Shown here in pieces: positions 12,746-64,000 of a DNA stretch of 64,000 nt. Source of the stretch: a bacterium (GTDB lineage: Bacteria > Zhuqueibacterota > QNDG01 > JAFGCO01); the NCBI GenBank assembly GCA_016932575.1, contig JAFGCO010000065.1:20465-84464 (forward strand), written 5' to 3'. The notes under the pieces are model-generated. The model ran no database searches. It had not been told where the DNA came from and saw only the letters and a list, made by a program, of their open reading frames with translations. Numbering within the stretch: the stretch's first letter is position 1; every line of letters begins with the position of its first letter. Both the position numbers and the translations under genes were made by a program.

Positions 12746-12790
12746 AGGTTGTGTTCTCCTCAAAATTCAAAACCATTATCCCGCCTATAA

Positions 12791-22039: not shown

Positions 22040-22075
22040 AATCACTCCCTATAGGAATTATGAACTCATTGTTTA

Positions 22076-48544: not shown

Positions 48545-50005
48545 ATGGAAAAAAAAATTGTCATGGAAGGGCTCACATTCGATGATGTTTTGCTGATCCC
48601 TGATAAATCGGATGTCATACCAAATGAAACAGACCTGCGAACCCGTTTAACTCGTAATCTTTGGGTGAATATTCCCCTCATCTCTGCGGCTATGGATACA
48701 GTAACCGAATCGCGGCTGGCCATTGCTATTGCAAGAGAGGGCGGTATCGGAATTATTCATAAAAATCAGTCGATTGAAAACCAGGCCGCACAGGTGGATA
48801 AAGTAAAACGATCAGAAAGCGGTATGATTTTCAATCCTTTATCTCTTTCTCCAAAGAAAACCATTCAAGATGCACTGCAGTTAATGCATCAGTACCATAT
48901 CAGCGGCATCCCGATTGTGGATGGTGAAAAACTTGTGGGCATATTGACAAACCGGGATATCCGTTTTCTAACAGAACTGGATCAGCCTATTGAGAATGTG
49001 ATGACAAAGGAAAATTTGATTACGGCGCCGATAGGCACAAAACTGAATGAGGCTGAAAAAATCCTGCAAAAACACCGGATTGAGAAACTGCTGATTGTGG
49101 ATGATACCGGCAAGCTGCGCGGTCTGATCACTGTAAAAGACATTCAAAAACGAAAAGCTTTTCCTCATGCAGCAAAAGATGAATCGGGCCGTCTTCTTGC
49201 AGGTGCCGCAGTTGGCGTGTCAAAGGATACGATGAACCGGGTATTGGCCCTTCGGGATGCAGGAGTGGATGTGATATGTGTGGACACAGCTCACGGCCAC
49301 TCAAAAGGTGTATTTAAAACAATTCAAACCATCAGAAAAGAATTCCCTGATATTGAATTGATTGGCGGTAATGTGGCAACCAAGGAGGGCGCTCTTGTGT
49401 TGATTAAAGCGGGAGTGGATGCCGTGAAAGTTGGTATTGGACCGGGATCGATTTGTACCACGCGAGTTGTGGCTGGCGTGGGAGTACCTCAACTTTCCGC
49501 TATCATGCAATGCACGGAAATATGCCAGAAACATAATACCCCTCTCATCGCCGATGGCGGCATCCGGTACTCCGGAGACATTGCCAAGGCCATTGCCGCT
49601 GGTGGCGATACAGTTATGCTTGGATCTATTCTAGCAGGGGTTGAAGAGAGTCCCGGCGAAACAGTCCTTCTTGAAGGACGCAGCTATAAAGTCTATCGTG
49701 GCATGGGATCTTTGGGCGCCATGGCCGAAGGAAGCGCGGATCGTTATTTTCAGGAAAGTGCCGAACGCAATAAATTGGTACCAGAGGGTATCGAAGGACG
49801 TGTCCCCTACAAAGGACGGCTTTCAGATGTGGTGTACCAGCTGGTGGGCGGTATTCGTTCTTCTATGGGATACTGCGGTGTTCGTACCATACAAGAAATG
49901 AAAAACAAGACGCGGTTTGTGAAAGTGACTGAAGCCAGTGTACGAGAGAGCCATCCGCACGACGTCACGATTACAAAAGAAGCTCCGAATTATCAAAGAG
50001 GATAA
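48545..50005 (+). CDS. guaB: IMP dehydrogenase.
   Basis: Start refined to [20 protein letters not shown]. Tandem CBS domains. Catalytic loop '[21 protein letters not shown]', '[12 protein letters not shown]'. Confidence 0.9.
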
Positions 50006-50006
50006 A

Positions 50007-50043
50007 AAAACGGACAATGCTTTTTTACTCGTCCGTTTTATTT
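50007..50043. terminator. Bidirectional terminator between the convergent guaB and rpsT genes.
   Basis: aaaacggac / gtccgtttt stem, 15-nt loop, A-run upstream and T-run downstream. Confidence 0.45.
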
Positions 50044-50185
50044 CAATGCTCAAAATATCGTGGATAAATCTTTGATGGGTATTCAGCACTCATATCAAAA
50101 CAGAAGCTGTGCCGGTATTTATGCGCCCACCTTTCTGCATCATGGTAAAGTTTACATTAACCAGAACCAGGAAAACAAGACCGGA

Positions 50186-50440
50186 TTATTGAATACTATT
50201 AACCATTCTTGTCAATTTGGATTTGATATTGGCTGCTTTATTTTTATGAATAATACCTTTTACTGCCATACGATCCAAAAGGCTGGCTGTTTTTTTCAAT
50301 TCAACAGCTGCGGATTCTTTATCCGGTGCATTTTGGACCTTTTTAATAGCGTTTTTCATTTTCGATCGCTTTTGAACATTTCGCATACGTCTTGTTTCAT
50401 TTTGTCGAGTACGCTTTTCAGCCGATTTATGTTGTGGCAT
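50186..50440 (-). CDS. rpsT: 30S ribosomal protein S20.
   Basis: 'MPQHKSAEKRTRQNETRRMRNVQKRSKMKNAIKKV...' is a canonical S20 N-terminus. 84 aa. Confidence 0.9.
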   Translation of the reverse strand: MPQHKSAEKRTRQNETRRMRNVQKRSKMKNAIKKVQNAPDKESAAVELKKTASLLDRMAVKGIIHKNKAANIKSKLTRMVNSIQ

Positions 50441-50525
50441 AAATACCCCTGTCTTGGTTCAAATTAAACAGAGAAAAATATACGAAAATTCATTTTGTAT
50501 GTCAAGGGAATATTTATAAAACTCC

Positions 50526-51134
50526 ATGTTTTATCTTTTGTTAGGCTTAACTATAATCGCCTTGTTGTGGATTATTTTTGGAACTTATCGAATCACAGCA
50601 TATGGCGAAATCAGAAAAGGGCATTGGTCTCTTACAATTGGCCTTGTACGCTTTAAATATCTGTTTACGATTAAATGGCAAAATCAATCTTCTGGTAAAA
50701 ATAAACTTATGATCACAATTTTTACAATGTCCGTTCCCGCCAGAATTAGGGCGCGTGAGAAAAAAAATGAAAAGAATCGTTTTGAGATTTCAGTCAAAAA
50801 TCTGTTTGGCCAATCAAAAAGAAATTTACAGAAAATATCAACCCTCTCTCCCCTGATTCTAAAATTGCTGAAAAAAATAAAGGTGATGGAGTTGAGCATC
50901 AATGGACAAATGAGCCTATGGGATCCTGCAACATCAGGGATTATTTACGGATTGTCACAGTGGGTACGCAGTTACCCGATTTCACCGGTGGATATCCGTA
51001 TCTATCCCCTGTTTTATCCTGATGAAAGTGCCGCAATATGTCATTTGAAAATTAAATTCTGTGTGGCTTCAATTTTATATTTAATGTTCCGGGAACGTCA
51101 TATCTGGAAACCGATGATTTCCGGAAACCGATGA
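50526..51134 (+). CDS. YtfI-like (DUF2953) membrane-anchored protein.
   Basis: N-terminal TM 'MFYLLLGLTIIALLWIIFG'. It sits immediately upstream of, and is translationally coupled to, a GerW/YtfJ homolog, as ytfI–ytfJ are in Bacillus. The assignment rests on context and architecture. The sequence is weakly recognisable. Confidence 0.4.
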   Translation: MFYLLLGLTIIALLWIIFGTYRITAYGEIRKGHWSLTIGLVRFKYLFTIKWQNQSSGKNKLMITIFTMSVPARIRAREKKNEKNRFEISVKNLFGQSKRNLQKISTLSPLILKLLKKIKVMELSINGQMSLWDPATSGIIYGLSQWVRSYPISPVDIRIYPLFYPDESAAICHLKIKFCVASILYLMFRERHIWKPMISGNR

Positions 51135-51148
51135 TAAGGAGGCAATCA

Positions 51149-51523
51149 ATGGTTATTCAGGATCTGGTAAAAACGGTGCTTAAAGAGTTGCGTGAAATAT
51201 CCAAAACACAAACCGTGGTCGGAGATCCCATTAAAGTGCAGGCGGCCACTGTAATTCCTGTCTCTAAGGTATCTTTGGGTTTTGGCATTGGAGGTGGAGA
51301 AGGTTCCGAAAAATCCAGCGCCTATGAGGGAACAGGCGGCGGGATCTCCATTGAACCACAAGCGTTTATAGTCGTTCAAAATGAAAAGGTGGAACTCATT
51401 AGCCTGAAAAAGACAGGTACGGCATTGGGTGAAGTGGTTGATCTGGTTCCCAAAGTACTGGATCGGATGCAAAAAATGAAAAAGAAAAACAAATCCTCTT
51501 CCGAATCGGGAGAAAAATCATGA
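51149..51523 (+). CDS. GerW/YtfJ-family protein (DUF2758; sporulation-associated in Firmicutes).
   Basis: AAGGAGG ribosome-binding site. 'TVVGDPIKVQAATVIPVSKVSLGFGIGGGEGS...GGGISIEPQAFIVVQNEKVELISL' closely matches the GerW consensus (…IGEP…VIPVSKVSFGFG.GG……GGG…P.A.IVV…V.L…). Confidence 0.7.
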   Translation: MVIQDLVKTVLKELREISKTQTVVGDPIKVQAATVIPVSKVSLGFGIGGGEGSEKSSAYEGTGGGISIEPQAFIVVQNEKVELISLKKTGTALGEVVDLVPKVLDRMQKMKKKNKSSSESGEKS

Positions 51524-51714
51524 AACAGCATCGAAAGCATGATCAGGAAGATTTGTTTGGGCTTTCTGAATTAGATACACTGAAACGTCAAATCAAAGAG
51601 ATGGATCAGCAAATCTCCCATGCATTAAAGGCCAATGATTACACAGAAGCCAAAAAACTCACAGACCAGCAGGCGGAGTTGCTTCAAGCACTGGTTGAAA
51701 AAGGGGAAATATAA
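51520..51714 (+). CDS. Small coiled-coil hypothetical protein (64 aa), translationally coupled (ATGA) to the GerW gene.
   Basis: The ORF start overlaps the upstream stop. The content is charged and helical. Confidence 0.35.
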   Translation: MKQHRKHDQEDLFGLSELDTLKRQIKEMDQQISHALKANDYTEAKKLTDQQAELLQALVEKGEI

Positions 51715-51721
51715 TTGACTC

Positions 51722-52174
51722 ATGGTAAATTGCATTGTTGAAATATGCCAGGAAGCTGGCTGCCAGGATCTCCCGATTCCTCACTACCAGACCGAGGGAT
51801 CTTCTGGTATGGACTTGTATGCGGCCGTGGACAAACCAATAACAATACAACCAGGTGAAGTTATGCTGGTGCCGACTGGCATACGCATAGCTCTCTCTCC
51901 CGGTTATGAAGCACAGGTGCGTCCCCGTAGCGGTCTGGCCCTCAAACATGGAATCGGCCTGCTGAACAGCCCGGGCACAATTGATGCCGATTATCGAGGG
52001 GTCATCGGAATTATTCTGTTTAATTTCGGCCGTGCTGTCTTTACGATCCATCGTGGTGACCGGATCGCTCAGATGGTCATTGCCAGAGTGGAGAACGCCA
52101 AAGTCAAAGTGGTTCGTGTATTACCGGAAAGCGCCCGGGGCAATGGCGGTTTTGGATCTACAGGAAAGCAATGA
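51722..52174 (+). CDS. dut: dUTP diphosphatase.
   Basis: 'SSGMDLYA', '[12 protein letters not shown]', '[17 protein letters not shown]', 'GDRIAQMVI', '[10 protein letters not shown]' are the five dUTPase motifs. Confidence 0.9.
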
Positions 52175-52249
52175 ATGATATACAGAGGTGAGATATAAGA
52201 TTCTGGCATATAACATGATAAAATCTCAATTGATATTTCTGAATCGATT

Positions 52250-53543
52250 TCAGCTGTTCTTATTTCCAGTGGCGACGATCTCTTTGATCCACACAGTTCT
52301 CACAGATTTCGGGCGTTCAATGGGTTCCATCAATCCTCGTGACAAAACCAGCTGAGCAAGCAGACCCATTGCCCGGGATGCACCAAAAAGGACAGTATAA
52401 TATTCAAATTCACGAATTCCATAATGATAAAGCAGCGCTCCGGAACCGGCATCCACATTGGGCCAGGGATTTTTCGCACGACCGTGTTCTTTTAAAATAT
52501 CAGGAATCGTTTTGTATAAAAGGTTGACAATTTTAAATACATCGTCATTCGGGCACGCTCTCAAACCAAAATTTCGAAAAGCGATAAACCGGGGATCCGT
52601 AACACGCAAAACAGCATGTCCGTATCCGGGAATCACCTTTCCGGAATTAAGCGTTTCCCATGCAAAATCGACAATTTGACTCTCGGTAGGCACACCCCCG
52701 AATTTTTTCAAAATAGAGAGTACAAATCTCAAACATTCCTGATTCGCCAATCCGTGAAGAGGTCCGGATAAACCGTTCATGGCGGCGGAAATCGAGTAAA
52801 ACGGATCAGAAAGGGCAGATCCCACACAATGGCAGGTATGTGCACTCACATTACCACCTTCGTGATCAATATGAAGCACCATATACAGCCTGATTAAATC
52901 GGCGAATGTACCCTGCGGATCGTGAATACCCATCATAAAAGCAAAATTATCTGCCCAGGTTTTCTCCGGATCAGAATGAATGCGCTCCCCCCTGTTAAAC
53001 CGTTTACGATAAATATAGGCGGCAATGGCCGGTATTCGCGCAACCAGACGCAGGGCATCCTCCAGCACATAAATCCAGTAATCGCTTTTAGGAATACCCT
53101 TTCTATATTCCATAGCAAAAACCGAATCACGGTGCATAACCAGGATGGCTGTGCTTAACATGGTCATCGGATGCGCATCTCCGGATAATGCGTCTAATAC
53201 AGACCAAACATAAGATGGAACTTCTTCCCTTGACCGTAATTCTCTTTGCAGGTCCAGAAGGGCCTCTTTATCAGGCAGATCACCGGTAAGCAGCAAATAA
53301 AACAGCTCCTCCGGCAAGCGATCAACCAAATCTAAAATCGGAGAATCTCTAATAATCAGTCCCTTGTCGGGCTCGACAATCGAAGTGTCGCATATAAGCG
53401 ATTCAACACCCCGCATACCGCCTAAAGCCTGTTTCACTGTCACATTCGAAATAACCCTGTCTCCGTGCTTTTCAATCAAATCATTAATTTCTTTTCGAAG
53501 AACAGATAAATTTTCAGACAGTTTTTTTTGCAAGAGACCCATC
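52250..53543 (-). CDS. Citrate synthase family enzyme.
   Basis: Start refined to MGLLQKKLSEN (AAAGGAGG ribosome-binding site 8 nt upstream). 'GPLHGLANQE', 'HIDHEGGNVSAHT' and 'SGKVIPGYGHAVL' match citrate-synthase signatures. Confidence 0.85.
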
Positions 53544-53638
53544 AAACAAAACCTCCTTTGACCATGAAAAATCAATATTGTTTTATAAATAATCCACGGA
53601 TAAAATAACAGATGTTCATTCCAAGAGAAAAAATGCAA

Positions 53639-53965
53639 TATTTATTCATGACAGCAAATTTGATGTAACTACTTATAAAAATAGCTTTTCCATGCGACAA
53701 TGTCAATAGGCAATTCAGGGACAGGCCAGATAAAATCGTAACAATCATTGAAATTACTTGAATGTGAAGAGGATGACAATTTTAATGGCATTTTATCTCT
53801 GTATTTAATAATTTGAGATAATGCAAACACAAATGGTATAATGATTGTTATGATGGTATTGAATCAAGCGATTCTATGCAAAATCAAAAATTAGTTGAAT
53901 CCAGGGAAAAAATAGTGTAACTTCAACAAAATATAACAGATAAATTTTAAAAATTAAGATAATTT
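53639..53965. promoter_or_regulatory. 327-bp AT-rich divergent promoter region between citrate synthase and the 1560-aa ligase–GNAT gene.
   Basis: A long non-coding spacer between divergently transcribed genes. Confidence 0.3.
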
Positions 53966-56900
53966 ATGGATGTTCAAATGTCACATCCTGATCAGTTAAA
54001 AAATATGACAACTCTGCTTACCGATTGGAAAAATGCCAATTTTCAAAACAAAGGGCCTAAGGAGCTTTCTCAACGGATCCTCTCAATTATGGAAGAAACG
54101 ATTCAATCGAACCAGGAACCTCCTTTTCCCAGAAAGCTCTGGCATGATCTGCTGGATATTACAGGAAAAAGCGGCTTTCTTCAAAGCCTGCCCGATCGCG
54201 ACTTACAATATCGATGGGCAGAAGCTGTATTTAATATTATCCGCATTTCTCAGTTTACACTGAACGACATGTTCAATCAGCGAGTAAAAAACCACCCTCA
54301 ACGGATTCTGTTTAATGAAATAAACGGACAGGAATCAACGACATGGACATATGAGCAGATCCATAGACACATTCTTGAAATAGCCGCTGTCTTTTACTCA
54401 TCCGTCGATCAATCGCCTCGTGTGGCCATTCTTTCTGAAAATTCTGTAGAGAGTGCCTGCTGTGATCTTGCCTGCCTGATGTATGATATCCTGAACACGC
54501 CTCTTAATGTTTATCTGGATTCTGAAGTATTGATTGATATTTTTAATCGGTTAAATATCAATATCGTTGTTACAGATACCTGTGAAAAATGTAAGATGCT
54601 CCAGGACATCTCCGGCAAGTGCCGTCAGCCGTTTAAAATCTTTGTCACAGATGTCATGTGCAGAGAAAATGAAAATATCCATTTTATTGGCAAGTATTGT
54701 AAAAAAATACATATTAAAGAAGCCAATAAAATATTAAGTAACCGGAAACACAGGGACTTAAGCCAGGTGGCAACCGTCATGTTTACATCAGGCAGCACTG
54801 GTAAACCCAAAGGAGTGTGTTTTTCAATATATAATCTGGTCACCAAACGGTTTGCCCGTGCAGCTGCTCTTCCTGAAGTCGGCGACAATGAAATCTTTCT
54901 TTGCTATTTGCCTCTTTACCATACATTCGGAAGATTTTTGGAACTTTTAGGATCTATCTATTGGGGTGGCACATACACTTTTCTCGGGAATCCTTCTGCT
55001 GAAACACTGATCGCACAATTTCCGGAAATTAATCCCACAGGATTTATCAGCATTCCTCTGCGCTGGTCTCAACTTTATGAAAAATGTATTGAGAAAATCG
55101 ATCCGATTCCGGGAGATCAGCTTCAGGAAGTGGCTATCCGGTCTGTTATCGGCAACCGGCTTCGTTGGGGTTTATCCGCAGCCGGATATCTGGATCCAAA
55201 AATATTCCGTTTTTTTCAGCGACACGGAATAAAAATTTGCAGTGGTTTTGGATTGACTGAGGCAACCGGCGGAATTACCATGACACCCACAGACAAATAT
55301 TTAGATAACTCACATGGCATTCCAATGCCGGGTGCCTATATTCGTCTGGGAAGACAAAATGAAATGCAGGTCAGAGGCCCGTACATTGCCCGATATCTGG
55401 ATGATGTTGGTGCTGATGGATACATCCCATATCCAGGGTCGCCTGATTCCGATTACTGGCTGACGACCGGCGATCTTTTTCAGGTTTCCTCTGAGGGTTA
55501 TTATGAAATTGTAGATCGAATCAAAGATATTTATAAAAACAATAAAGGCCAAACCATCGCGCCGAGAAAGGTTGAAAAAAAGTTTATTGATGTCCCTGGC
55601 GTGAAACGTGCATTCTTGGTCGGAGATAGTCATCCCTATAATGTTCTGTTTATTGTTCCGAACCTCAAAGATCCGGTACTGCAGGTATCTGAAACACCTG
55701 AGCAACAAAGGGAGTATTTTCACCAGATTGTTGCAACGGCCAATCAGGATCTTGCACCCTACGAACGAATCGTCAATTTTACGGTGCTTGACCGGGATTT
55801 TAAAATTGATAAAAAAGAACTGACCCCGAAAGGAACGTTCAATCGGAAAATAATTGTCGAAAACTTTGCCGGGAAAATTGCCGAATTATATCGAAGCAAC
55901 TATATCGAATTAAAATCGAGGGATATTCAAATCAAGATACCCAGATGGTTTTTTAGAGACCTGGGTATTCTGGAGGATGAGATCCAATTGGCTTCAAAAG
56001 GTTTGATGAATAAAAGAACCGGCGAAATTCTTCATATATCCAAACAGAGGGATTCAAATCATATTAAGATCGGAAATCTTGAATATGTCATCAAAGGAAA
56101 AACCATTGATCTCGGAGTTTTTTCACGGCAGCCTCGCTTATGGATCGGCAATCCTGCACTGGTATCGTTTTGTCCGATTAAGATGGGATGGGATGCGCCA
56201 TTTGACACAATTTCAGACCATGTATTTCGTCCATGGAACGTTGAAACACAGCCTCCGTCCGTCAATATCAGAGAAACAGCGCGTATCAGTGATCTGTTTT
56301 TACTCCAACTCCATCGTTTGATTTCAGAAATGATTTTTTATCATTCAGAAGTCGCTTTACAATCTTTACATCATTTGGAAAAAATTTTAAAAACCGCCAA
56401 TGATCGCACAGCCGATGTGATTCGGCATCGACTCGAAACACTGGCCCGTCACCCTGATGAACAGCTACGATGCCTTGCCTACAAAATTTTACTTCTTGAT
56501 GAACCCCAGATGGACTACAGTAAAGCATTTCCGGCTTTTATCAATTCAGGTTTGAGTTTTCTGAATAAGGAAACCATCGAAGAGATTGCTTTCTCACTGG
56601 TCGAAAAAAGACGTCTGGACGCCTTGCGCCAACGGTTATTTAATTACCGACTGCAGCTTGAATGGCCGGTCGACGAAGCAACCCGCAAACAATTTATCAA
56701 TATTTTTCAACTTCTGGTCAGTTTTGTGGAATATCATCCCGAATTTTACAATTCTGTTCGTGCAGAGCTGGCAAGCTGGACCCTTCATGGATCAGATCCA
56801 GAACTGGCGAAAGCAGCAAATAAATCGTTTATAAAACTCTTTACGGACTTTGAAGCCGCATTGGAGGAAAATACTTCAAAATACAGCAAGTATGACTGGA

Positions 56901-58648
56901 ACCGCCGGATCGAATTTGATGAAGCATTGTCGCCCAATGAAATCAGCCGAATTAAAAAAGTATTAATCGGCTCAACATTCCTGAAACAATCCATTATGCT
57001 GGCGTTTGATGAAAATGATTTCGATTTATATCAAGTGCCTGAAGATGGCATCTGGATATCCAGGCTTCAATCTTCTCATTATTATCTCCTGTACCGAATG
57101 AGTGTCAACACAGAAGAAGGAAAGCACTTCGATCTTCAGCTGGTGCTTCGTGAAACGCTTCAGGAAACACAAATCAAAAAATCGGTACACTGGCTTGAGG
57201 CAGTAGCCGGTTATCCTTTCGGCCCGCCCGTACTGCCCCCCTTGGGATGTTACCGTCCGGAACTCGGTGCCAGATCAATGGTGTATCTGAATGAAATCAC
57301 GGTCTGGGGAAAAATCCGCCAGTTCTCAAGCATTCATTTTACCGGAGGTCCCTTTACCAAACCTGAAACATGGCGCAAACTGTTTGTTACCGCTCTGTCT
57401 GTTTTTTACCGCGGCTGGCACAACAGTGGCAATAAAATCGTACCGGGATCTGTATCGCCTACCAATGTGGTAGTACCGGAACTGGATTTTCGCGAAAGTG
57501 CAAAAATATTGTCACTGGTCGGATGGAAAGAATATAAAAATACGCTGTCATTAATCCAGCCAATGCTGCGTAATTTTTACGCCAAGACAATTGCCAATTT
57601 CCCAAGGATCAGGGCGGAGCTGAATGTTATTTGGATCTTTGATGCCTGTATCGAAGCGCTTGGTTCTGAAATGGCTTTTCAGTTTTTGAATCAACTGAAA
57701 ACGGATCTCATGCACGAGACACTGCATAATTACCCTCAACCGGAATTTATGGATTTACTCTCAGAATACATTGAAAACCATCGAAATAAATATTATTTGA
57801 CCCTCCCGCTTATCAATGCCATTGAACGGTATCATAATTGGAAAGCTTTAAATCCGATGGCCACCCAAATTGCCTGTGAGCAAACAGTGATCGAAGTGTA
57901 CCATTTGTATCGTCTCGACCGGTTTCATGAAATTGCACGGTATGTTCTGTACAGGCATACATATTTTTCACAAGCCGATCATGAGGCATCAAAGGCATTC
58001 GATGATCTGATCAATGCCATGTCGGTCCAGCAGAAAAAACCTGCCATTCAATTTCTGGAGTTATCCAATTTTCAATCGACATTAACCGACAGTGATGACC
58101 GAAATATATTCAGCAGAATGGTATTCCCCCAATATCAGCATCGTAAGGAACTGGAGGTGTTAAAATTTGGCGAGAGTGAAAGCGAGCATGTGATAGTGCA
58201 TACTACCATTACAGACAAATATAACAATCAATATACCATCCGTCCCCCGGTCGCACCTGCAGAAATTGGTCAGTTGTACCGTTTGTTTTTCAATCAAAAT
58301 TTCCCCAAAGAGATTTCTGAACAGGATAAGCATTTTGTTGTTCTGAATGCGCAGGAACGGGTCATTGCAGGAATCAGCTATCAGCTTCAGGAAAACAATG
58401 TAGCTGAAATTCAGGGGATTGTTGTATCATCTCCGTTAAAGGAGCGGGGACTCGGCACCGCCATTCTCGAAGATTTTTGCAACAGAATGGCCAGTGAAGA
58501 TATTCATGTGATCAAGGCCCATTTCTTTCTCCAGCCATTTTATGAAAAATTTGGATTCCGGGTGGATAAAAGCTGGGGGGCTCTTGTCAAATTTCTCACG
58601 CCTGAAAAAATCATGGATAGTGCTATAGAAAACGAAATCGGCGGTTAA
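53966..58648 (+). CDS. Large multidomain protein: an AMP-forming acyl/aryl-adenylating enzyme (ANL superfamily), ~780 aa of unknown sequence, and a C-terminal GNAT acyltransferase.
   Basis: ANL motifs 'MFTSGSTGKPKGVCFS', 'GFGLTEATGGITM', 'YWLTTGDLF', 'VDRIKDIYKNNKGQTIAPRKVE', 'LTPKGTFNRKII'. The C-terminal GNAT reads 'IQGIVVSSPLKERGLGTAILEDFCNRM'. Confidence 0.7.
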   Translation: MDVQMSHPDQLKNMTTLLTDWKNANFQNKGPKELSQRILSIMEETIQSNQEPPFPRKLWHDLLDITGKSGFLQSLPDRDLQYRWAEAVFNIIRISQFTLNDMFNQRVKNHPQRILFNEINGQESTTWTYEQIHRHILEIAAVFYSSVDQSPRVAILSENSVESACCDLACLMYDILNTPLNVYLDSEVLIDIFNRLNINIVVTDTCEKCKMLQDISGKCRQPFKIFVTDVMCRENENIHFIGKYCKKIHIKEANKILSNRKHRDLSQVATVMFTSGSTGKPKGVCFSIYNLVTKRFARAAALPEVGDNEIFLCYLPLYHTFGRFLELLGSIYWGGTYTFLGNPSAETLIAQFPEINPTGFISIPLRWSQLYEKCIEKIDPIPGDQLQEVAIRSVIGNRLRWGLSAAGYLDPKIFRFFQRHGIKICSGFGLTEATGGITMTPTDKYLDNSHGIPMPGAYIRLGRQNEMQVRGPYIARYLDDVGADGYIPYPGSPDSDYWLTTGDLFQVSSEGYYEIVDRIKDIYKNNKGQTIAPRKVEKKFIDVPGVKRAFLVGDSHPYNVLFIVPNLKDPVLQVSETPEQQREYFHQIVATANQDLAPYERIVNFTVLDRDFKIDKKELTPKGTFNRKIIVENFAGKIAELYRSNYIELKSRDIQIKIPRWFFRDLGILEDEIQLASKGLMNKRTGEILHISKQRDSNHIKIGNLEYVIKGKTIDLGVFSRQPRLWIGNPALVSFCPIKMGWDAPFDTISDHVFRPWNVETQPPSVNIRETARISDLFLLQLHRLISEMIFYHSEVALQSLHHLEKILKTANDRTADVIRHRLETLARHPDEQLRCLAYKILLLDEPQMDYSKAFPAFINSGLSFLNKETIEEIAFSLVEKRRLDALRQRLFNYRLQLEWPVDEATRKQFINIFQLLVSFVEYHPEFYNSVRAELASWTLHGSDPELAKAANKSFIKLFTDFEAALEENTSKYSKYDWNRRIEFDEALSPNEISRIKKVLIGSTFLKQSIMLAFDENDFDLYQVPEDGIWISRLQSSHYYLLYRMSVNTEEGKHFDLQLVLRETLQETQIKKSVHWLEAVAGYPFGPPVLPPLGCYRPELGARSMVYLNEITVWGKIRQFSSIHFTGGPFTKPETWRKLFVTALSVFYRGWHNSGNKIVPGSVSPTNVVVPELDFRESAKILSLVGWKEYKNTLSLIQPMLRNFYAKTIANFPRIRAELNVIWIFDACIEALGSEMAFQFLNQLKTDLMHETLHNYPQPEFMDLLSEYIENHRNKYYLTLPLINAIERYHNWKALNPMATQIACEQTVIEVYHLYRLDRFHEIARYVLYRHTYFSQADHEASKAFDDLINAMSVQQKKPAIQFLELSNFQSTLTDSDDRNIFSRMVFPQYQHRKELEVLKFGESESEHVIVHTTITDKYNNQYTIRPPVAPAEIGQLYRLFFNQNFPKEISEQDKHFVVLNAQERVIAGISYQLQENNVAEIQGIVVSSPLKERGLGTAILEDFCNRMASEDIHVIKAHFFLQPFYEKFGFRVDKSWGALVKFLTPEKIMDSAIENEIGG

Positions 58649-58656
58649 AAAAGTGG

Positions 58657-59919
58657 TTAATGATACCTGGAAACGTTCAGATACTCCGAGGAAAGTGCAT
58701 AAAAATGTTTGATTTTGGTATACAGGACTGTCTCTCCATACCCCTCAACCTCTATAAGCATTTCGAAATAAGCAGGAACAGGGCCATGCATCGCTGTTAT
58801 GTCTTCCCTTAATTTATTAAGCAATAGTGGTTCAACGAGAAATTTTAAAACTTCTATTCGGCTGATCTGGTGAAATGAAACGATAAATAAAAACACATTA
58901 TTCTGCGGTCCGGGTACAAGAGAAACAATAACATAATCTCTCACATAGTGACTTGCATTTGAACTCGGGTGCACATATGTATAGGTTGTATCAATCGTAT
59001 GATTATAAAAACGAATCTGCCGAAAAGAATCTCTTGGAACATTTTCAGTATATTTAGAAAAATATAATGAAGGAAAAAATTCTTTCATATGATTTAGATG
59101 ATAAAAATGTCCGATATATACAATATTATATTTTTTCAGGTCTTCCCATTGAATCTGGTTAGAGGTTTTCCAGGTCAATGGTTTATCATTCAGCGTAAAT
59201 ATCGGCTGAATGGCCGACAGATATTGCAAACTTGACTTGGAAAGTATATCCCAGGAGGGTTGTTGATAATTGTCAGGATTCAGGGAATGCCGATCGATAA
59301 AATTCTCAAGATCATCAACAGATTCTATTTGATCATCACGAACCAGCCTGTAACTGTTTAAATCTGCGCAATACTCATTAAATGCGAACAAACTCCCAAA
59401 TGCAAGTATGGTCGAAATATCATCATTTAAAAAATTACTCCAGATAAAACTGGCTTCACGGATGGGACTCTGGGCCATCGTTTTATTTCTCGATGCCTGA
59501 TTTCGATACCACTGAAGAATGATAATAGAAATTAAAATAATGATAATCAACAGATATACAGTTTTCAATAAATTCGCTTTTTGCCTGCCTTCTTTTGATT
59601 TGGACTCAAATACAACATGATAGTGCCCCTTGGGAATTGTTAATTTAATTTTATCATTTTTCCCGTCTTTATGATAATACTCTTCTAATTTTTTTCTCAG
59701 TTTATAGATATGAACACGCACAAGCGTATCTTCAAAAGGATCAAAGGTATGATCTTTTCCCAAGACCTCAGTCGCGATTTCAATCTCACTGGCAACCACC
59801 CCTTTTAAAGAACATTGAACCAGGTACATAAGCAGCTTTTTGTAAATCTCACTTTTTGCAAAAAGGGGATTCGCCAAAACGCTCTTCAGAAAATTCAGTT
59901 GTGCTTTACTTTTAATCAT
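58657..59919 (-). CDS. ToxR/CadC-like membrane-anchored transcriptional regulator: an N-terminal OmpR/PhoB-type winged helix, one TM segment and a ~280-aa periplasmic domain.
   Basis: 'EIATEVLGKDHTFDPFEDTLVRVHIYKLRKKLE' is the classic trans_reg_C wing. TM 'LLKTVYLLIIIILISIIILQWY'. There is no receiver domain. Confidence 0.55.
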   Translation of the reverse strand: MIKSKAQLNFLKSVLANPLFAKSEIYKKLLMYLVQCSLKGVVASEIEIATEVLGKDHTFDPFEDTLVRVHIYKLRKKLEEYYHKDGKNDKIKLTIPKGHYHVVFESKSKEGRQKANLLKTVYLLIIIILISIIILQWYRNQASRNKTMAQSPIREASFIWSNFLNDDISTILAFGSLFAFNEYCADLNSYRLVRDDQIESVDDLENFIDRHSLNPDNYQQPSWDILSKSSLQYLSAIQPIFTLNDKPLTWKTSNQIQWEDLKKYNIVYIGHFYHLNHMKEFFPSLYFSKYTENVPRDSFRQIRFYNHTIDTTYTYVHPSSNASHYVRDYVIVSLVPGPQNNVFLFIVSFHQISRIEVLKFLVEPLLLNKLREDITAMHGPVPAYFEMLIEVEGYGETVLYTKIKHFYALSSEYLNVSRYH

Positions 59920-60389
59920 TGGGGAATAAAAATCTTCTGATTCATTGAAGAATATCTTTTATATATGAATGTAACATTCGAACCATTGATCAATAAAATC
60001 CAAATAACAATTTTTAATATAAAATTGATTCACCATGAAATCAAGATAATATTATTTACAATTCCATAATCATCGGTTTGAGATGATTTTTCATAAATCC
60101 ATTCTTTTGACACCAACACGACTGTATCTGAATTTATTTAAAATATCCGGAGTTATCGTACTTACATATTCAGCTCAAATTATCACCATTCATCTTTGAA
60201 AGTAACTATGGATACATGGGCATTCGGATGAACGACTTAAAATGCCCCCCGCCGCATGACTGTTTCAATGGCGTTCACAATCATTTAATTTGTTAACCAT
60301 ACGTGAATTCACATTGATTCACTTGTTTTTTATGCAATAAAACATTATTTATATACCGGTTTTTTCAATGAAAATTTTGAGAGATCATC
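59920..60389. promoter_or_regulatory. 470-bp divergent regulatory region. It contains the perfect 10-bp palindrome GTGAATTCAC (~60303..60312) followed by a TTCAC half-site.
   Basis: Palindrome read directly: 'acGTGAATTCACattgaTTCACttg'. Confidence 0.3.
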
Positions 60390-61223
60390 ATGAAGGAACA
60401 GTGTATTGGAGTTATCGTCCCGGAGTTAAGGCACCCGTTTTTTGCGGCCACATTGGACGGCATTCATGACGCAGCCTTCAATGAAGGGTTTGCTGTTTGC
60501 GTTGGACAATCCAAGGAAGACTATCAGCGGGAAAAAGAAGAAATAAAATTCTTATTGTCCTTTGGTATTGATGGATTGCTTGTCTCGATATCTCAAAAGA
60601 CAGAAAATCATGATCATTTCAATCATGTATTGAAACAATCAATCCCCCTCGTTTTTTTCGATCGGGTATGCCCGGATATCAATGCCAGTCGGGTTGTCGT
60701 GGATGATTTTGATGGTGCATACAAAGCAACCGAGCATCTGATATTATCCGGTTATAAACATATTGCTCATATCGGAGGGCCTCAATTTATTTCAAATATG
60801 AAAAAACGCCTGGAAGGATACAAAGCCGCGCTTGAAAAATACGGCATGACGTTTCAGCCGGATCTGGTTGTCTTTGGCAATCTGGATGAGGATTCCGGCA
60901 TCCTTGGCATGAAAATGCTCCTCCAACTCCCCCAAAAACCGGATGCTGTATTTGCGGTCAATGATCCCGTGGCTATCGGCGCCTTGTTTCAAATTAAAAA
61001 AACCGGCTTGAAAATTCACGATGACATTGCTATGGTCGGTTTCAGTGATAATCAGGTCGCTGCATTAATTGAACCACCGTTAACAACTGTAGCTCAACCT
61101 CGATATGAAATAGGGCAAGTATCCGCCAAATTACTAATCGATCAAATAAATAATAAAAATGCAAACGCTTTGCCGATCGAAAAAACATTAAAAACCAAAT
61201 TAATTATCCGAAAAACAAGTTAG
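60390..61223 (+). CDS. LacI-family sugar-binding (periplasmic-binding-protein-fold) domain protein lacking the N-terminal HTH. It is either a truncated regulator or a stand-alone ligand-binding module.
   Basis: 'IGVIVPELRHPFFAATLDGIHDAAFNEGFAVCV...' is the LacI/PurR core. There is an in-frame stop 4 codons upstream of the ATG and no HTH-like coding in the upstream 180 bp. No signal peptide. Confidence 0.55.
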   Translation: MKEQCIGVIVPELRHPFFAATLDGIHDAAFNEGFAVCVGQSKEDYQREKEEIKFLLSFGIDGLLVSISQKTENHDHFNHVLKQSIPLVFFDRVCPDINASRVVVDDFDGAYKATEHLILSGYKHIAHIGGPQFISNMKKRLEGYKAALEKYGMTFQPDLVVFGNLDEDSGILGMKMLLQLPQKPDAVFAVNDPVAIGALFQIKKTGLKIHDDIAMVGFSDNQVAALIEPPLTTVAQPRYEIGQVSAKLLIDQINNKNANALPIEKTLKTKLIIRKTS

Positions 61224-61381
61224 CCTACAAGGGAATCACTTGAAACAGGTTTAAAAATCTCCAACATACTTATCATATATAAACACAAGTGTTAATAAAG
61301 GGTACTCACTAATCATGCCAATTAACCAAAGCTGACAATATAAGGCACAACACAGCATCAATACGATTGGAGGAATCATCG

Positions 61382-62662
61382 ATGCTCAATATTCAAAGGC
61401 TCAATTCCATATTTAAAGAAATCTACGCAGCTGACAACGGCAGTCTGAAAACCCAGTTTCAGAGATATGAAAATTTAATTGTAAGTTTCAAGAATCGGTT
61501 CAGTGAACAGGACATCCATCTTTTTAGTACGCCCGGAAGAACGGAAATCGGCGGAAATCATACGGATCATAATCAGGGGCAGGTTCTGGCAGCGAGTATT
61601 CATCTCGACTCTGTGGCCGCGGCTGCCAAGAATAACTCCAATCAAATTGTGATTTATTCGGAAGGATATCAAGAGCCGTTTATCATTGAATTGAGCCATC
61701 TGGAAGTCGTTGAGAAGGAGAAAGTAACAACCTCTGCCCTTATACGGGGAATCGCCGCCCGTATGAAACAACTGGGATATAATATTGGCGGATTCCATGC
61801 ATGCATCACCAGTTCTGTTCTGCCCGGTTCCGGCCTGAGTTCTTCAGCATCGATTGAAATTCTCATCGGGTCAATCATGAATGCACTTTTCAATGAGAAT
61901 AAAATAACCCCGGAAATACTGGCAGTGATTTGTCAATATGCAGAGAATATTTACTTTGGCAAACCCTGTGGACTGATGGACCAGATGACCTGTGCCGTCG
62001 GAGGCATCATTCGTATTGATTTTAAAAATCCTGAACAGTCGGTCGTACAAAAAGTGGATTTTAAACTTGATGATTATCATTACAGTCTGCTCGTTGTCAA
62101 TACAGGCGGAAATCATGCAGATCTCACTGATGAATATGCAGCGATCCCATCTGAAATGAAAACGGTCGCACATGCGTTTGATGCCGAAGTGATGCGGGAT
62201 GTTCCGACAGATCGGTTTTTCAATAAAATACCTGAACTGAGAAAGCAGGCCGGTGATCGGGCCGTGCTCAGAGCATTCCATTTTTTGCATGAGCATGAAC
62301 GTGTCTCCCATCAGGTGAAAGCCCTGGAAGAAAAAAATTTCCAGAAATTCATCTGTCTCATCCGGGATTCAGGAAATTCCTCCTATAAATGGCTGCAAAA
62401 TATATATGCATCCAGCCATGTGCGGGAGCAGGGCGTTTCTTTGGCTCTTGCACTCACTGAAAATTATCTGAATAAAATACAGACAGGTGCCTGCCGCATT
62501 CACGGCGGCGGATTCTCTGGTACCATCCAGGTCTTTATGCCTAAGGCATCGGTCTCGGAGTATTCAGCGCAAATTCGATCTATTTTCGGAGAAGAAAGCG
62601 TGAGCGTTCTCAGTATTCGTCCTTGCGGAACGCTTTACCTGAACCCGTATTTGGAAGAATGA
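61382..62662 (+). CDS. Galactokinase-family GHMP kinase.
   Basis: GGAGG ribosome-binding site (the track start is a TTG). 'PGRTEIGGNHTDHNQGQVLAASI' corresponds to the GalK 'GRVNLIGEHTDY' signature. GHMP motif 'PGSGLSSSASIEI'. Confidence 0.65.
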   Translation: MLNIQRLNSIFKEIYAADNGSLKTQFQRYENLIVSFKNRFSEQDIHLFSTPGRTEIGGNHTDHNQGQVLAASIHLDSVAAAAKNNSNQIVIYSEGYQEPFIIELSHLEVVEKEKVTTSALIRGIAARMKQLGYNIGGFHACITSSVLPGSGLSSSASIEILIGSIMNALFNENKITPEILAVICQYAENIYFGKPCGLMDQMTCAVGGIIRIDFKNPEQSVVQKVDFKLDDYHYSLLVVNTGGNHADLTDEYAAIPSEMKTVAHAFDAEVMRDVPTDRFFNKIPELRKQAGDRAVLRAFHFLHEHERVSHQVKALEEKNFQKFICLIRDSGNSSYKWLQNIYASSHVREQGVSLALALTENYLNKIQTGACRIHGGGFSGTIQVFMPKASVSEYSAQIRSIFGEESVSVLSIRPCGTLYLNPYLEE

Positions 62663-62667
62663 ACCGA

Positions 62668-63099
62668 TTAAAATGTTTCTTCTCTGACCACTGTATCTTC
62701 GGCCACCACAATCAGCCCGGTGATCTTTTCGGGATATAATTCACAGTAGTACAGGAAATTGCCGGTCGAATCAAACCGTACGGAAAATTCTCCGCCGGGT
62801 TCTAAAGAATCCACCGAAAAATAATCTTTCGGATTCTCCGGAATGCCGCTGACAATAGAATGCATGACAGTGTCTTCATTTATCCAGACAACAGACATCC
62901 CCCTAGCGATAGTCATACTTTTTGGAACCAGCTCACCACCCGGCATTATCCGCACATCATTTTCAGTGGAATACAGCGGTTTGGGCCGGGAGCATCCGAT
63001 AAAATAAATAATTACCAGAGCAGACAGGATAATAAATAATTGTTGAAATTGCTTCATCATAATACCATCCTCCTTGTTCAATAAAAAATAAACAAGCAA
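62668..63099 (-). CDS. Cupredoxin-like lipoprotein with non-canonical metal ligands.
   Basis: Lipobox 'YFIGC|SRP'. 'VMHSIVS' and 'YYCELYPEKITGLIVV' resemble the plastocyanin 'H…YxCxPHxxxGMxGxIxV' motif, but the second His and the Met are replaced. Confidence 0.4.
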   Translation of the reverse strand: MLVYFLLNKEDGIMMKQFQQLFIILSALVIIYFIGCSRPKPLYSTENDVRIMPGGELVPKSMTIARGMSVVWINEDTVMHSIVSGIPENPKDYFSVDSLEPGGEFSVRFDSTGNFLYYCELYPEKITGLIVVAEDTVVREETF

Positions 63100-63106
63100 T
63101 TATAAT

Positions 63107-63793: not shown

Positions 63794-64000
63794 ATTATAC
63801 TCCCATTTGTTTGTATAATTGAAGAACAGAAATCCGCTTCACACACAAAAGCATAACATTTTCAGATAATAACAGAAAACAAAACACGAGTAGACGCATC
63901 CGGGACCAAAAAAGCAGGACAGTCAGTCATATGAGTGCCAACTGGTTTTCAGTTGCCGTGGTCATTTTGAATCCACTTTTCAATATCGTGCTTTTCAAGT

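What the first reader, a model, noticed from the sequence alone, without database searches (positions are those of the whole stretch)
53966..58648. 1560-aa fusion of an AMP-forming adenylation enzyme, a ~780-aa unknown region and a GNAT
All the core ANL motifs (A3, A5, A7, A8, A10) are intact in residues ~250–640. The last ~130 residues are a GNAT, read from 'GLGTAILEDFC…'.

None of the known ligase–acetyltransferase pairings has this architecture. Pat/AcuA uses an NDP-forming ligase-like domain. Aas uses an acyltransferase of a different fold. N-acyl amino acid synthases are stand-alone GNATs.

An acyl-adenylate-forming domain covalently linked to an N-acyltransferase suggests a single-polypeptide pathway for N-acyl amino acid, lipoamino acid or aminoglycoside-like acylation. 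Alternatively it could be a self-regulating ligase. The 780-aa linker has no motif I recognise. It could hold a carrier or scaffold function.
Basis: partly seen in the sequence, partly recalled or inferred. Interest (0 to 1): 0.65.

Follow-up and report, generated by a model that had tools for sequence, protein, structure and literature searches.

The report
Giant ligase–pseudokinase–acetyltransferase fusion enzyme
This is a real, widely conserved but unstudied 1,560-residue bacterial protein that joins an acid-activating ligase, a scaffold, a dead-looking kinase domain and an acetyltransferase, and its gene often sits beside Krebs-cycle genes, which suggests a built-in control of acyl-CoA metabolism.

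Summary
The ORF at 53966..58648 (+) is real. Its ligase (ANL) and GNAT ends are confirmed by Pfam.

The "unknown 780 aa" resolves in confident AlphaFold models (pLDDT 86–90) into three parts:
- a conserved β-rich domain whose fold I could not identify;
- a HEAT-like α-solenoid;

No carrier or condensation domain is present.

The five-part architecture is invariant across two deep clades (about 22–27% identity in the middle region). The near clade occurs in uncultured Bacteroidota, Ignavibacteriales, Calditrichota, Zixibacteria, Gemmatimonadota, Krumholzibacteriota and Acidobacteriota. Named members of the far clade are Ignavibacteria, Melioribacteraceae and Calditrichota. No stand-alone version was found.

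There is no universal operon partner. Citrate synthase, aconitase, isocitrate dehydrogenase or fumarase lies next to the gene in at least five different arrangements.

The ligase's A10 lysine is shifted by two residues (K-G-S/T where CAR, and ACSL1 as I recall it, have the Lys three residues before the conserved Arg).

No paper describing this architecture turned up. My best guess (confidence about 0.35) is an acyl-CoA synthetase fused to its own Pat-like sensor-acetyltransferase module. A two-step N-acylation pathway remains a live rival.

The parts
53966..58648 (+). Whole gene, 1560 aa (an alternative annotated start is Met5 at 53978). It looks monocistronic, with opposite-strand genes on both sides.
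53966..54250 (+). N-terminal extension, aa 1-95. Poorly conserved and longer in the far clade.
54251..55507 (+). ANL (adenylate-forming) large N-subdomain, aa ~96-514, carrying A3 (274-283), A5 (427-436) and A7 (501-503). Gly429 occupies the position that, as I recall, holds the acetate-gating Trp in acetyl-CoA synthetases.
55508..55900 (+). ANL C-subdomain, aa 515-645 (A8 hinge 517-533). The A10 loop E618-L-T-P-K622-G-T624-F-N-R627-K (nt 55817-55849) has its Lys shifted by two residues.
55901..56230 (+). β-rich domain, aa 646-755 (about 10 strands). It follows the ligase without a linker. It is the second most conserved region (P659, W661, G703, Y707, P723, W726, G728, N729). Fold not identified.
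56267..57010 (+). α-solenoid (HEAT/ARM-like helical repeat), aa 768-1015.
   Evidence: weak Pfam HEAT hits in far-clade members
57038..58135 (+). Protein-kinase-like domain, aa ~1025-1390. Features: G1028 loop; β3 Arg1044; catalytic-loop region IVPGSVSPTNVVVPELDF (1158-1175) with N1167 and D1174 kept; the catalytic-Asp position is S1162; the αC Glu is replaced by Lys in this lineage.
58151..58600 (+). GNAT acetyltransferase domain, aa ~1396-1545. Motif A is R1494-G-L-G-T-A1499 (nt 58445-58462). The β4 acidic residue is E1481 here, where most of the family has D/E1483.
52250..53638 (-). Context, not part of the protein: a divergently transcribed eukaryotic-type citrate (Si)-synthase, 327 bp upstream.

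Best explanation
The protein is a self-contained, regulated acyl-CoA synthetase. Each step below is marked as shown or inferred.

1. Shown: the N-terminal 645 residues are an ANL enzyme of the FadD/ACSL type with intact adenylation motifs.
2. Inferred: this domain converts a carboxylic acid, ATP and CoA into an acyl-CoA. The acid is probably larger than acetate, because Gly429 replaces the Trp gate.
3. Shown: the C-terminal 916 residues are modelled as one chain with good global confidence (pTM 0.80), made of β-domain, HEAT-like solenoid, kinase-like domain and GNAT. That they pack into a single compact body is inferred, because I could not inspect coordinates.
4. Inferred: this body works like the bacterial 'sensor + GNAT' protein acetyltransferases (Pat, MtPat, AcuA). 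The pseudokinase keeps R1044, N1167 and D1174 and would bind a nucleotide or CoA-type ligand as a sensor. The solenoid would dock a protein surface. The GNAT would use acetyl- or acyl-CoA to acylate a lysine.
5. Inferred: the most economical target is the ligase's own A10-loop lysine K622, in cis or between subunits, which would switch the ligase off when acyl-CoA or energy status is high. Partner enzymes at the entry of the Krebs cycle are a possible alternative target.
6. Shown: in the Bacteroidales loci the isocitrate dehydrogenase gene lies 16-86 bp downstream on the same strand in most loci (224 bp in one), and in several lineages the gene lies next to citrate synthase. Inferred: the short gaps suggest co-transcription with isocitrate dehydrogenase, and the adjacencies place the function at acetyl-/acyl-CoA homeostasis.
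For: - Domain identities: Pfam and two AlphaFold models (pLDDT 86.5, pTM 0.80; pLDDT 89.5, pTM 0.85).
- The best PDB sequence hit of the GNAT is the GCN5 histone acetyltransferase. NCBIfam gives weak hits to RimI and a generic N-acetyltransferase.
- The GNAT is under selection. Motif A is kept. The β4 acidic residue swaps position between close relatives (E-I-Q against Q-I-E), so one acidic residue is always present.
- The pseudokinase keeps R1044 (121/121), N1167 (116/121) and D1174 (118/121) but never has Asp at the catalytic position.
- The ligase is the most conserved part: 109 of the 139 positions that are at least 90% conserved, and 39% identity to the far clade against 19-26% for the other domains. 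This fits a catalytic core plus faster-evolving regulatory modules.
- The architecture is obligate. The middle region occurs only inside proteins of about 1,470-1,710 aa. Six far-clade members were scanned and all keep the ANL and middle region; five also give a GNAT Pfam hit. All 17 of the shorter hits I inspected start inside the ligase, so they are fragments.
- Krebs-cycle neighbours:
  - citrate synthase in the window, L003, L013, L075, L078 and L079;
  - aconitase together with NADP-isocitrate dehydrogenase in 9-13 Bacteroidales loci;
  - class I fumarase in L058-L060.
- From my own knowledge rather than from tools: GNATs with an attached sensor domain acetylate the A10 lysine of acetyl-CoA synthetase, PrpE and mycobacterial FadD enzymes.
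Against: - No biochemical data exist.
- The A10 loop (T-P-K-G-S/T) is not the PX4GK site recognised by Pat-type enzymes, and the Lys is off the position seen in CAR.
- I could not model the ligase together with the GNAT, so no geometry supports self-acetylation.
- A covalently attached inhibitor of one's own active site is an unusual design.
- GNAT structural neighbours also include small-molecule acetyltransferases, such as AAC(2') and IAA acetyltransferase.
- The Krebs-cycle adjacency is recurrent but present in only a minority of loci. Apart from the gene-icd pair (16-86 bp in most loci) and the same-strand citrate synthase in two far-clade loci, it is adjacency on opposite strands.
- The far clade keeps a near-canonical kinase active site: αC Glu 117/118; Asp or Glu at the catalytic position 92/118; the Asp of an invariant H-D-Y triad at the DFG position 118/118. 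This hints that the domain was, or still is, catalytic rather than a pure sensor.
Confidence: 0.35

Rival explanations
1. Two-step biosynthetic enzyme. The ligase makes an acyl-CoA, and the GNAT immediately transfers that acyl group to a small-molecule amine such as an amino acid, polyamine or amino sugar, giving an N-acyl metabolite. The solenoid and pseudokinase only hold the two active sites together or bind the acceptor.
For: - Both catalytic domains look intact and are always fused.
- The ligase is of the FadD/ACSL type with an open acyl pocket.
- The GNAT gives weak hits to amino-acid N-acetyltransferase and N-acetylglutamate-synthase-type models.
- The kinase-like domain resembles small-molecule kinases of the APH, hexosamine and homoserine kinase group.
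- Isocitrate dehydrogenase and citrate synthase neighbours could supply 2-oxoglutarate and hence glutamate as an acceptor.
Against: - No transporter, lipid or other biosynthetic genes are conserved nearby.
- A 750-aa solenoid plus pseudokinase is a heavy spacer for simple channelling.
- The GNAT is the least conserved catalytic part: only 4 positions are at least 90% conserved, and one of six far-clade members scanned (P0193) gave no GNAT Pfam hit.
- The closest GNAT matches by sequence are protein acetyltransferases.
Confidence: 0.27
2. Trans-acting protein acyltransferase. The GNAT modifies other proteins, for example citrate synthase, aconitase or isocitrate dehydrogenase, which dock on the solenoid and pseudokinase platform. 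The ligase supplies the acyl-CoA donor locally or acts as an acyl-CoA/ATP sensor, by analogy with the inactive NDP-forming synthetase-like domain of Pat.
For: - Krebs-cycle enzymes are the only recurrent metabolic neighbours, seen in both clades.
- HEAT-like solenoids and Bud32/RIO-like domains are typical protein-binding modules.
- The GNAT is GCN5/Nat-like.
Against: - Adjacency is not interaction.
- Unlike the Pat sensor domain, the ligase motifs are fully intact and are the most conserved part of the protein. This argues for real catalysis rather than sensing.
- Most loci have no Krebs-cycle neighbour.
Confidence: 0.18
3. Trifunctional enzyme with a catalytically active atypical kinase-fold domain (phosphotransfer, ATPase or AMPylation). 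This domain would act on the same substrate as the ligase and the GNAT, or phosphorylate S/T624 in the A10 loop.
For: - The far clade keeps αC Glu (117/118), Asp or Glu at the catalytic position (92/118), Asn (83/118) and an invariant H-D-Y triad.
- The window clade keeps the metal-binding ligands N1167 and D1174.
- The position where the aligned CAR A-domain has its A10 Lys holds a conserved Ser/Thr here.
Against: - In the window clade the catalytic position is never acidic (A/S/V/I/L).
- The β3 Lys is Arg throughout the family.
- The αC Glu is Lys in the window lineage.
- There is no sequence-level match to any kinase family.
Confidence: 0.1

Closest known systems
Class I bacterial protein lysine acetyltransferases (Salmonella Pat, E. 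coli PatZ/Pka) and their ANL substrates (Acs, PrpE)
   Same: - A large N-terminal acyl-CoA-synthetase-related region sits ahead of a small C-terminal GNAT.
- There is an established functional link between a GNAT and AMP-forming ligases.
- Both concern acetyl-CoA metabolism.
   Different: - In Pat the N-terminal domain is NDP-forming-synthetase-like and inactive. Here it is an AMP-forming ANL with intact motifs.
- About 750 aa of β-domain, solenoid and pseudokinase are inserted.
- There is no PX4GK site.
- The would-be substrate and the modifier are in one chain.
Sensor-GNAT acetyltransferases acting on FadD/Acs (Mycobacterium Pat with a cNMP-binding domain; ACT-GNAT AAPatA; B. subtilis AcuA with AcuB)
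   Same: - A ligand-sensing module is attached to a GNAT that controls ANL enzymes, including FadD-type ligases.
   Different: - The proposed sensor here is a kinase-fold domain plus a solenoid, not a cNMP, ACT or CBS domain.
- The ligase is fused to the module.
- None of this has been demonstrated for this family.
Long-chain acyl-CoA synthetases of the FadD15/ACSL type
   Same: - Best NCBIfam matches and AMP-binding_C_3.
- An ACSL-like hinge, DRxKDIYK...G..IAP.
- The spacing from L-T-P to the final L-Y is the same as in ACSL1 as I recall it.
   Different: - Scores lie far below every curated cutoff (156.7 against 476).
- The A10 Lys is displaced: K-G-S/T instead of a Lys three residues before the Arg.
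- A 916-aa C-terminal extension is present.
Bud32/RIO and APH/choline-kinase-type atypical kinases
   Same: - A conserved Asn and Asp in the catalytic-loop and DFG-like positions.
   Different: - No sequence-level membership.
- β3 is Arg.
- The catalytic Asp is missing in the window clade.
- The domain is embedded between a solenoid and a GNAT.
AAC(6')-Ie/APH(2'')-Ia bifunctional resistance enzyme
   Same: - One chain combines a GNAT and an APH-like kinase fold.
   Different: - The domain order is reversed.
- Both domains are active there and act on aminoglycosides.
- It has no ligase and no solenoid.
- The window gene has no resistance context.
PI3K/Vps34-type 'helical domain + kinase domain' arrangement
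   Same: - An α-solenoid lies directly N-terminal to a kinase fold. These were the top Foldseek hits (E about 1e-4).
   Different: - TM-scores are low (0.2-0.3) and identity is about 10%.
- This is probably a convergent arrangement rather than homology.

Membership tests
ANL superfamily (adenylate-forming enzymes) | Pfam AMP-binding above the gathering score | tested here: met
   162.7 bits against 29.9, residues 103-468; AMP-binding_C_3 38.2 against 20.8
ANL superfamily (adenylate-forming enzymes) | Core motifs A3 (P-loop), A5, A7 (TGD) and A8 (hinge) | tested here: met
   TSGSTGKPKG, GFGLTEATGG, TGD and DRIKDIYKNNKGQTIAP are present and at least 90% conserved in 77 homologues
ANL superfamily (adenylate-forming enzymes) | A10 catalytic Lys at the canonical position (three residues before the conserved Arg) | tested here: inconclusive
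   That position holds S/T624. The invariant K622 lies two residues upstream, followed by Gly. No structure of this domain could be made.
Named acyl-CoA ligase equivalogs (FadD, FadD11, MenE, malonyl-CoA synthetase and others) | NCBIfam score above the curated cutoff | tested here: not met
   Best hit is PRK06187 at 156.7 bits against 476. All 25 listed models are far below their cutoffs.
GNAT superfamily | Pfam GNAT models above cutoff, and the GNAT fold | tested here: met
   [not shown]
GNAT superfamily | Acyl-CoA pyrophosphate-binding motif A (Q/R-x-x-G-x-G/A) | tested here: met
   R1494-G-L-G1497-T-A1499. G1495 is present in 69/77 homologues.
GNAT superfamily | Catalytic general base | tested here: inconclusive
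   An acidic residue on β4 is always present at position 1483 or 1481, with a compensatory swap between relatives. E1481 aligns with a Glu of Tetrahymena GCN5 that, as I recall, is its catalytic base. Its role is not shown.
Protein-kinase-like superfamily | Bilobal kinase fold | tested here: met
   [not shown]
Protein-kinase-like superfamily | Catalytic residues: β3 Lys, αC Glu, catalytic Asp, Asn, DFG Asp | tested here: not met
   In the window protein: R1044, K1072/S1073, S1162, N1167, D1174. Across 121 clade members the catalytic position is never Asp. The far clade keeps most of these residues except the β3 Lys.
Class I protein acetyltransferases (Pat/PatZ) | N-terminal NDP-forming acyl-CoA-synthetase-like domain plus a C-terminal GNAT | tested here: not met
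   The GNAT is C-terminal, but the N-terminal domain is an AMP-forming ANL. No CoA_binding, ATP-grasp or succinyl-CoA-ligase-type Pfam hits.
Class I protein acetyltransferases (Pat/PatZ) | Acetylation of the A10 Lys of ANL enzymes within a PX4GK motif | not testable with these tools
   The motif is absent (T-P-K-G-S/T). The activity needs biochemistry.
Carrier-protein-dependent systems (NRPS-like, Aas-like) | Phosphopantetheine carrier, condensation or PlsC-type acyltransferase domain | tested here: not met
   No such Pfam or NCBIfam hits. In the two models, β-rich, helical-repeat, kinase-like and GNAT modules account for the chain. The β-rich domain itself found no match.
Anti-phage defence systems | Match to a PADLOC model | tested here: not met
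   0 families

The most novel reading that the evidence does not exclude
The family is a new class of bacterial metabolic switch in which three chemistries converge on one loop. In this reading:
- the AMP-forming ligase has re-positioned its catalytic lysine (K-G-S/T);
- its own GCN5-like GNAT acylates that lysine, K622;
- its own kinase-fold domain either phosphorylates the neighbouring S/T624 (where the domain is still active, as in the far clade) or merely senses nucleotide (window clade).

Together these would gate carbon entry into the Krebs cycle.
Probability: 0.12. Interest if true: 0.85.

Novelty: new variant of a known kind. Interest (0 to 1): 0.6.

Why it matters
Control of AMP-forming acyl-CoA synthetases by lysine acylation is a conserved regulatory theme. 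As far as I recall, every known case uses separate proteins and cNMP, ACT, CBS or NDP-synthetase-like sensors.

This family would matter for four reasons:
- It puts the ligase, a kinase-fold module and the acetyltransferase in one rigidly conserved chain. That would be either a natural 'Rosetta stone' for this regulation with a new sensor type, or a new one-protein N-acylation pathway.
- It is widespread in abundant but uncultured sediment and soil phyla (Bacteroidota, Ignavibacteriales, Zixibacteria, Acidobacteriota), where automatic annotation calls it only 'GNAT family' or 'long-chain acyl-CoA synthetase'.
- It adds a sequence-undetectable kinase-fold family. Its two clades differ in whether the catalytic Asp is kept, which is useful for studying how pseudokinases evolve.
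- The displaced A10 lysine is an unusual variation in a very well-studied enzyme superfamily.

Tried and rejected
- **Sequence-level identification of the middle region:** nothing found.
  - phmmer against PDB gave 0 hits.
  - The profile of the kinase-like region against PDB gave only chance hits with E > 0.3.
  - The profile of the β-domain against PDB and Pfam gave only chance hits.
- **Conserved operon partner:** none.
  - The largest neighbour cluster covers 13 of 70 loci.
  - Two loci from other phyla have unrelated neighbours.
- **Stand-alone 'middle + GNAT' proteins:** rejected. All 17 shorter hits I inspected start inside the ligase sequence.
- **Anti-phage defence role:** no PADLOC hit.
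- **Riboswitch or other RNA family in 50000-64000:** none.
- **Acetyl-CoA synthetase identity for the ligase:** disfavoured. Gly429 occupies the Trp-gate position, and the best matches are of FadD/ACSL type.
- **Literature:** five full-text searches found no paper on this architecture. A candidate paper (PMC11255334) mentions only tag fusions.
- **First genome scan:** the mixed-clade alignment A2 failed because no stretch was conserved enough. I repeated it with near-clade sequences only, so the 71 loci under-sample the far clade.

Full report
**Observation**

The window has one uninterrupted ORF at 53966..58648 on the + strand (ATG, 1560 aa). An identical protein is in public databases, annotated only as 'GNAT family N-acetyltransferase [bacterium]'. 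It is P0001 = MBN2105134.1, 1556 aa, starting at Met5, on a 151,835-bp contig.

Pfam places:
- AMP-binding at residues 103-468 (162.7 bits, cutoff 29.9);
- AMP-binding_C_3 at 527-644;
- three GNAT models at 1442-1534;
- nothing between 650 and 1440.

The ligase motifs A3, A5, A7 and A8 are present and at least 90% conserved across 77 diverse homologues.

One point needs correcting. The A10 loop reads E-L-T-P-K622-G-T624-F-N-R627-K. The only solved ANL that aligns through this loop is the CAR A-domain (6oz1). In that alignment, and in ACSL1 as I recall its sequence, the catalytic Lys lies three residues before the conserved Arg. In this family that position is always Ser or Thr. An invariant Lys-Gly sits two residues upstream. 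A10 is therefore present but displaced.

**Anatomy of the 'unknown' region**

An AlphaFold2 model of residues 645-1560, built on 95 sequences, has pLDDT 86.5 and pTM 0.80. A second model of residues 645-1020 has pLDDT 89.5 and pTM 0.85. In protein numbering the models show four parts:

1. **β-rich domain, 646-755.** It starts directly after the last ligase helix with no flexible linker.
2. **All-helical repeat domain, 768-1015.**
3. **Bilobal α/β domain, about 1025-1390.**
4. **GNAT, about 1396-1545.**

The middle is therefore a β-domain of unresolved fold, a HEAT-like solenoid and a protein-kinase-like domain. No carrier, condensation or PlsC-type domain is present.

**State of the kinase-like domain**

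I read the expected positions from the model and from alignments.

| Position | Window clade (121 sequences) | Far clade (118 sequences) |
|---|---|---|
| β3 Lys | Arg1044 in all | Arg 116/118 |
| Catalytic-loop Asn (N1167) | 116/121 | 83/118 |
| DFG-position Asp (D1174) | 118/121 | Asp of an invariant H-D-Y triad, 118/118 |
| Catalytic Asp | A/S/V/I/L, never Asp (Ser1162 in the window protein) | Asp 76, Glu 16 of 118 |
| αC Glu | Glu in 78/121; Lys in the window lineage | 117/118 |

The far clade also has a canonical-looking hinge, W-[TS]-E-E-F-[IV]-P-G-E-T.

The window protein thus carries a pseudokinase by the usual criteria, one that could still bind a nucleotide with metal. The sister clade may retain catalysis.

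**State of the GNAT**

- Motif A (R1494-G-L-G-T-A1499) is present. Its central Gly is conserved in 69/77 homologues.
- An acidic residue on strand β4 is D/E1483 in 112/121 relatives. The window lineage has Q1483 but E1481, while near relatives have Q1481 and E1483 (E-I-Q against Q-I-E). Residues i and i+2 of a strand face the same side, so this is a compensatory swap. It argues that a catalytic acid is under selection.
- The best PDB sequence match is the Tetrahymena GCN5 histone acetyltransferase (E = 1e-3). E1481 aligns there with a Glu that, as I recall, is its catalytic base.
- NCBIfam gives only weak sub-threshold hits: a generic N-acetyltransferase, RimI and short N-acetylglutamate-synthase-type domains.

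**Distribution and architecture**

- The word-indexed search found 2,640 relatives. The best 120 are all 1,380-1,590 aa and 47-83% identical over at least 87% of the query (95% or more for all but three).
- An exhaustive HMMER scan of 1.84 billion cluster representatives with the middle region alone found only 326 hits. Essentially all full-length ones are 1,470-1,710 aa, with the region at about 640-1,430.
- All 17 shorter hits I inspected begin inside the ligase sequence, so they are fragments.
- A far clade is 22-27% identical in the middle region. Six members were scanned; all keep the ANL and middle region, and five give a GNAT Pfam hit. The clade is itself large: 120 listed hits, nearly all full-length.
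- Identity of the window protein to the far clade is 39% in the ligase but 19-26% in the other domains. Of the 139 positions conserved at 90% or more, 109 lie in the ligase.
- A scan of one genome per GTDB species returned 71 loci. All are metagenome-assembled genomes, from Bacteroidales/Bacteroidota, Ignavibacteriales, Calditrichota, Zixibacteria, Gemmatimonadota, Krumholzibacteriota, Fibrobacteraceae and Acidobacteriota, including Aminicenantes/Saccharicenans.
- The window itself encodes a protein with a type IX secretion sorting domain. This suggests an organism of the FCB (Fibrobacterota-Chlorobiota-Bacteroidota) group.

**Genomic context**

In the window the gene is flanked by opposite-strand genes:
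- a eukaryotic-type citrate (Si)-synthase upstream (52250..53638, −; 529.8 bits against a cutoff of 344);
- a winged-helix/transmembrane protein downstream.

No Rfam family lies in 50000-64000.

Across 70 loci no neighbour family is universal; the largest cluster covers 13 loci. A Pfam census of 101 immediately flanking ORFs is nevertheless led by Krebs-cycle enzymes: Iso_dh 12, Aconitase 9, class I fumarase 3 and citrate synthase 2. I count at least five distinct arrangements:

1. **Window and L003:** citrate synthase divergent upstream.
2. **L013:** citrate synthase convergent downstream.
3. **Nine to thirteen Bacteroidales loci:** mitochondrial-type aconitase divergent upstream, and NADP-isocitrate dehydrogenase downstream on the same strand, 16-86 bp away in most loci and 224 bp in one.
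4. **Saccharicenans L058-L060:** class I fumarase convergent downstream.
5. **Far clade:** citrate synthase directly upstream on the same strand in L075 and L078 (136-143 bp), and one gene removed in L079.

The window's synthase and that of L075 are 46% identical.

Other far-clade loci instead have a menaquinone-pathway gene upstream and a ClpB-like gene downstream, or unrelated genes.

My rough reasoning, not a computed statistic: a dozen Krebs-cycle genes among a few thousand per genome would give well under one such adjacency by chance across about 15 independent lineages. I therefore treat the association as real but partial.

**Mechanism**

Shown:
- a FadD/ACSL-like adenylating domain with intact motifs and an open acyl pocket (Gly429 where, as I recall, acetyl-CoA synthetases have the gating Trp);
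- a C-terminal region modelled with good global confidence;
- a GNAT with intact cofactor motif and a selected acidic residue;
- a kinase fold without a catalytic base in this clade;
- obligate fusion of all parts;
- recurrent Krebs-cycle neighbours.

Inferred (confidence about 0.35):
- The C-terminal 916 residues form a Pat-like 'sensor + GNAT' module that is fused to the ligase it controls.
- It acylates the A10-loop lysine, or docked partner enzymes, according to acyl-CoA or nucleotide status.

The known precedent, from my own knowledge, is that GNATs with attached sensor domains acetylate the A10 lysine of Acs, PrpE and mycobacterial FadD enzymes.

Against this reading:
- The loop is not a PX4GK site.
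- I have no model geometry for ligase plus GNAT.
- A tethered self-inhibitor is an unusual design.

Rivals:
- A two-step N-acylation pathway to a small molecule (0.27). Both active sites are always together, the kinase fold resembles APH-type small-molecule kinases, and the GNAT has weak similarity to amino-acid acetyltransferases.
- A trans-acting protein acyltransferase aimed at Krebs-cycle enzymes (0.18).
- A catalytically active atypical kinase domain, making the protein trifunctional (0.10). This is better supported for the far clade than for the window clade.

**Comparison with known systems and novelty**

Each module belongs to a known superfamily. The protein fails the defining tests of every named family I considered:
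- No acyl-CoA ligase equivalog reaches its cutoff.
- There is no NDP-forming synthetase-like domain as in Pat.
- There is no cNMP, ACT or CBS sensor.
- There is no carrier domain.
- There is no PADLOC match.

Five full-text literature searches returned nothing on this architecture.

I rate it a new variant of a known kind: a ligase/acetyltransferase system with a new kinase-fold/solenoid module and a displaced A10 lysine. Interest is about 0.6. It is a deeply conserved, abundant and wholly uncharacterised five-module enzyme with a plausible tie to central carbon metabolism. Its function remains an inference.

Noticed in passing
window 55817-55849 (aa 618-628): The ligase's A10 loop has an invariant Lys-Gly followed by Ser/Thr (K-G-S/T). 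In the aligned CAR A-domain, and in ACSL1 as I recall it, the Lys sits two residues further on, three before the conserved Arg. Both deep clades share this.
   Followed up: partly
far-clade proteins such as P0237, P0200, P0380 (loci L075, L076, L078): A sister clade (22-27% identical in the middle region) keeps the same five-module architecture. Its kinase-fold domain has near-canonical residues: αC Glu 117/118, catalytic Asp or Glu 92/118, invariant H-D-Y. The window clade has lost the catalytic Asp. Both clades include Ignavibacteriales-labelled members, so some lineages may carry both paralogues; I did not check this.
   Followed up: partly
window 58406-58414 (aa 1481-1483): Compensatory swap of the GNAT β4 acidic residue among close relatives: E-I-Q in the window lineage, Q-I-E or x-L-D elsewhere.
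   Followed up: yes
L009, L010, L014, L016, L021, L023, L025, L030 and others (Bacteroidales MAGs): The gene sits inside the oxidative Krebs-cycle cluster. Mitochondrial-type aconitase is divergent upstream. NADP-isocitrate dehydrogenase lies downstream on the same strand, 16-86 bp away in most loci (224 bp in L015).
   Followed up: partly
window 5180-12763 (-) and 15653-22045 (-): Two giant predicted surface proteins (2527 and 2130 aa) carry LVIVD repeats, several Laminin_G_3 domains and ASH/HYDIN-type Ig domains. Both have a C-terminal FlgD-Ig hit, and the second also has a type IX secretion sorting tail. TPR proteins sit beside each of them.
   Followed up: partly
window 40046-42256 (+) and 42256-43656 (+): Two adjacent ORFs (736 and 466 aa; the start of the second overlaps the stop of the first by one base) have no Pfam match at E <= 1e-5. 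They lie upstream of an ORF that I read by eye as a PAS-type sensor histidine kinase (43712-45484).
   Followed up: no
window 60390-61223 (+): A LacI-family sugar-binding domain ORF (277 aa) begins at the ligand-binding domain. No helix-turn-helix is encoded upstream in any frame. It is followed by a galactokinase-like gene (61367-62662).
   Followed up: partly
window 58648/58657: The gene's stop codon lies only 8 bp from the end of the convergent 420-aa winged-helix/transmembrane ORF (58657-59919, -). This leaves no room for a terminator between them.
   Followed up: no
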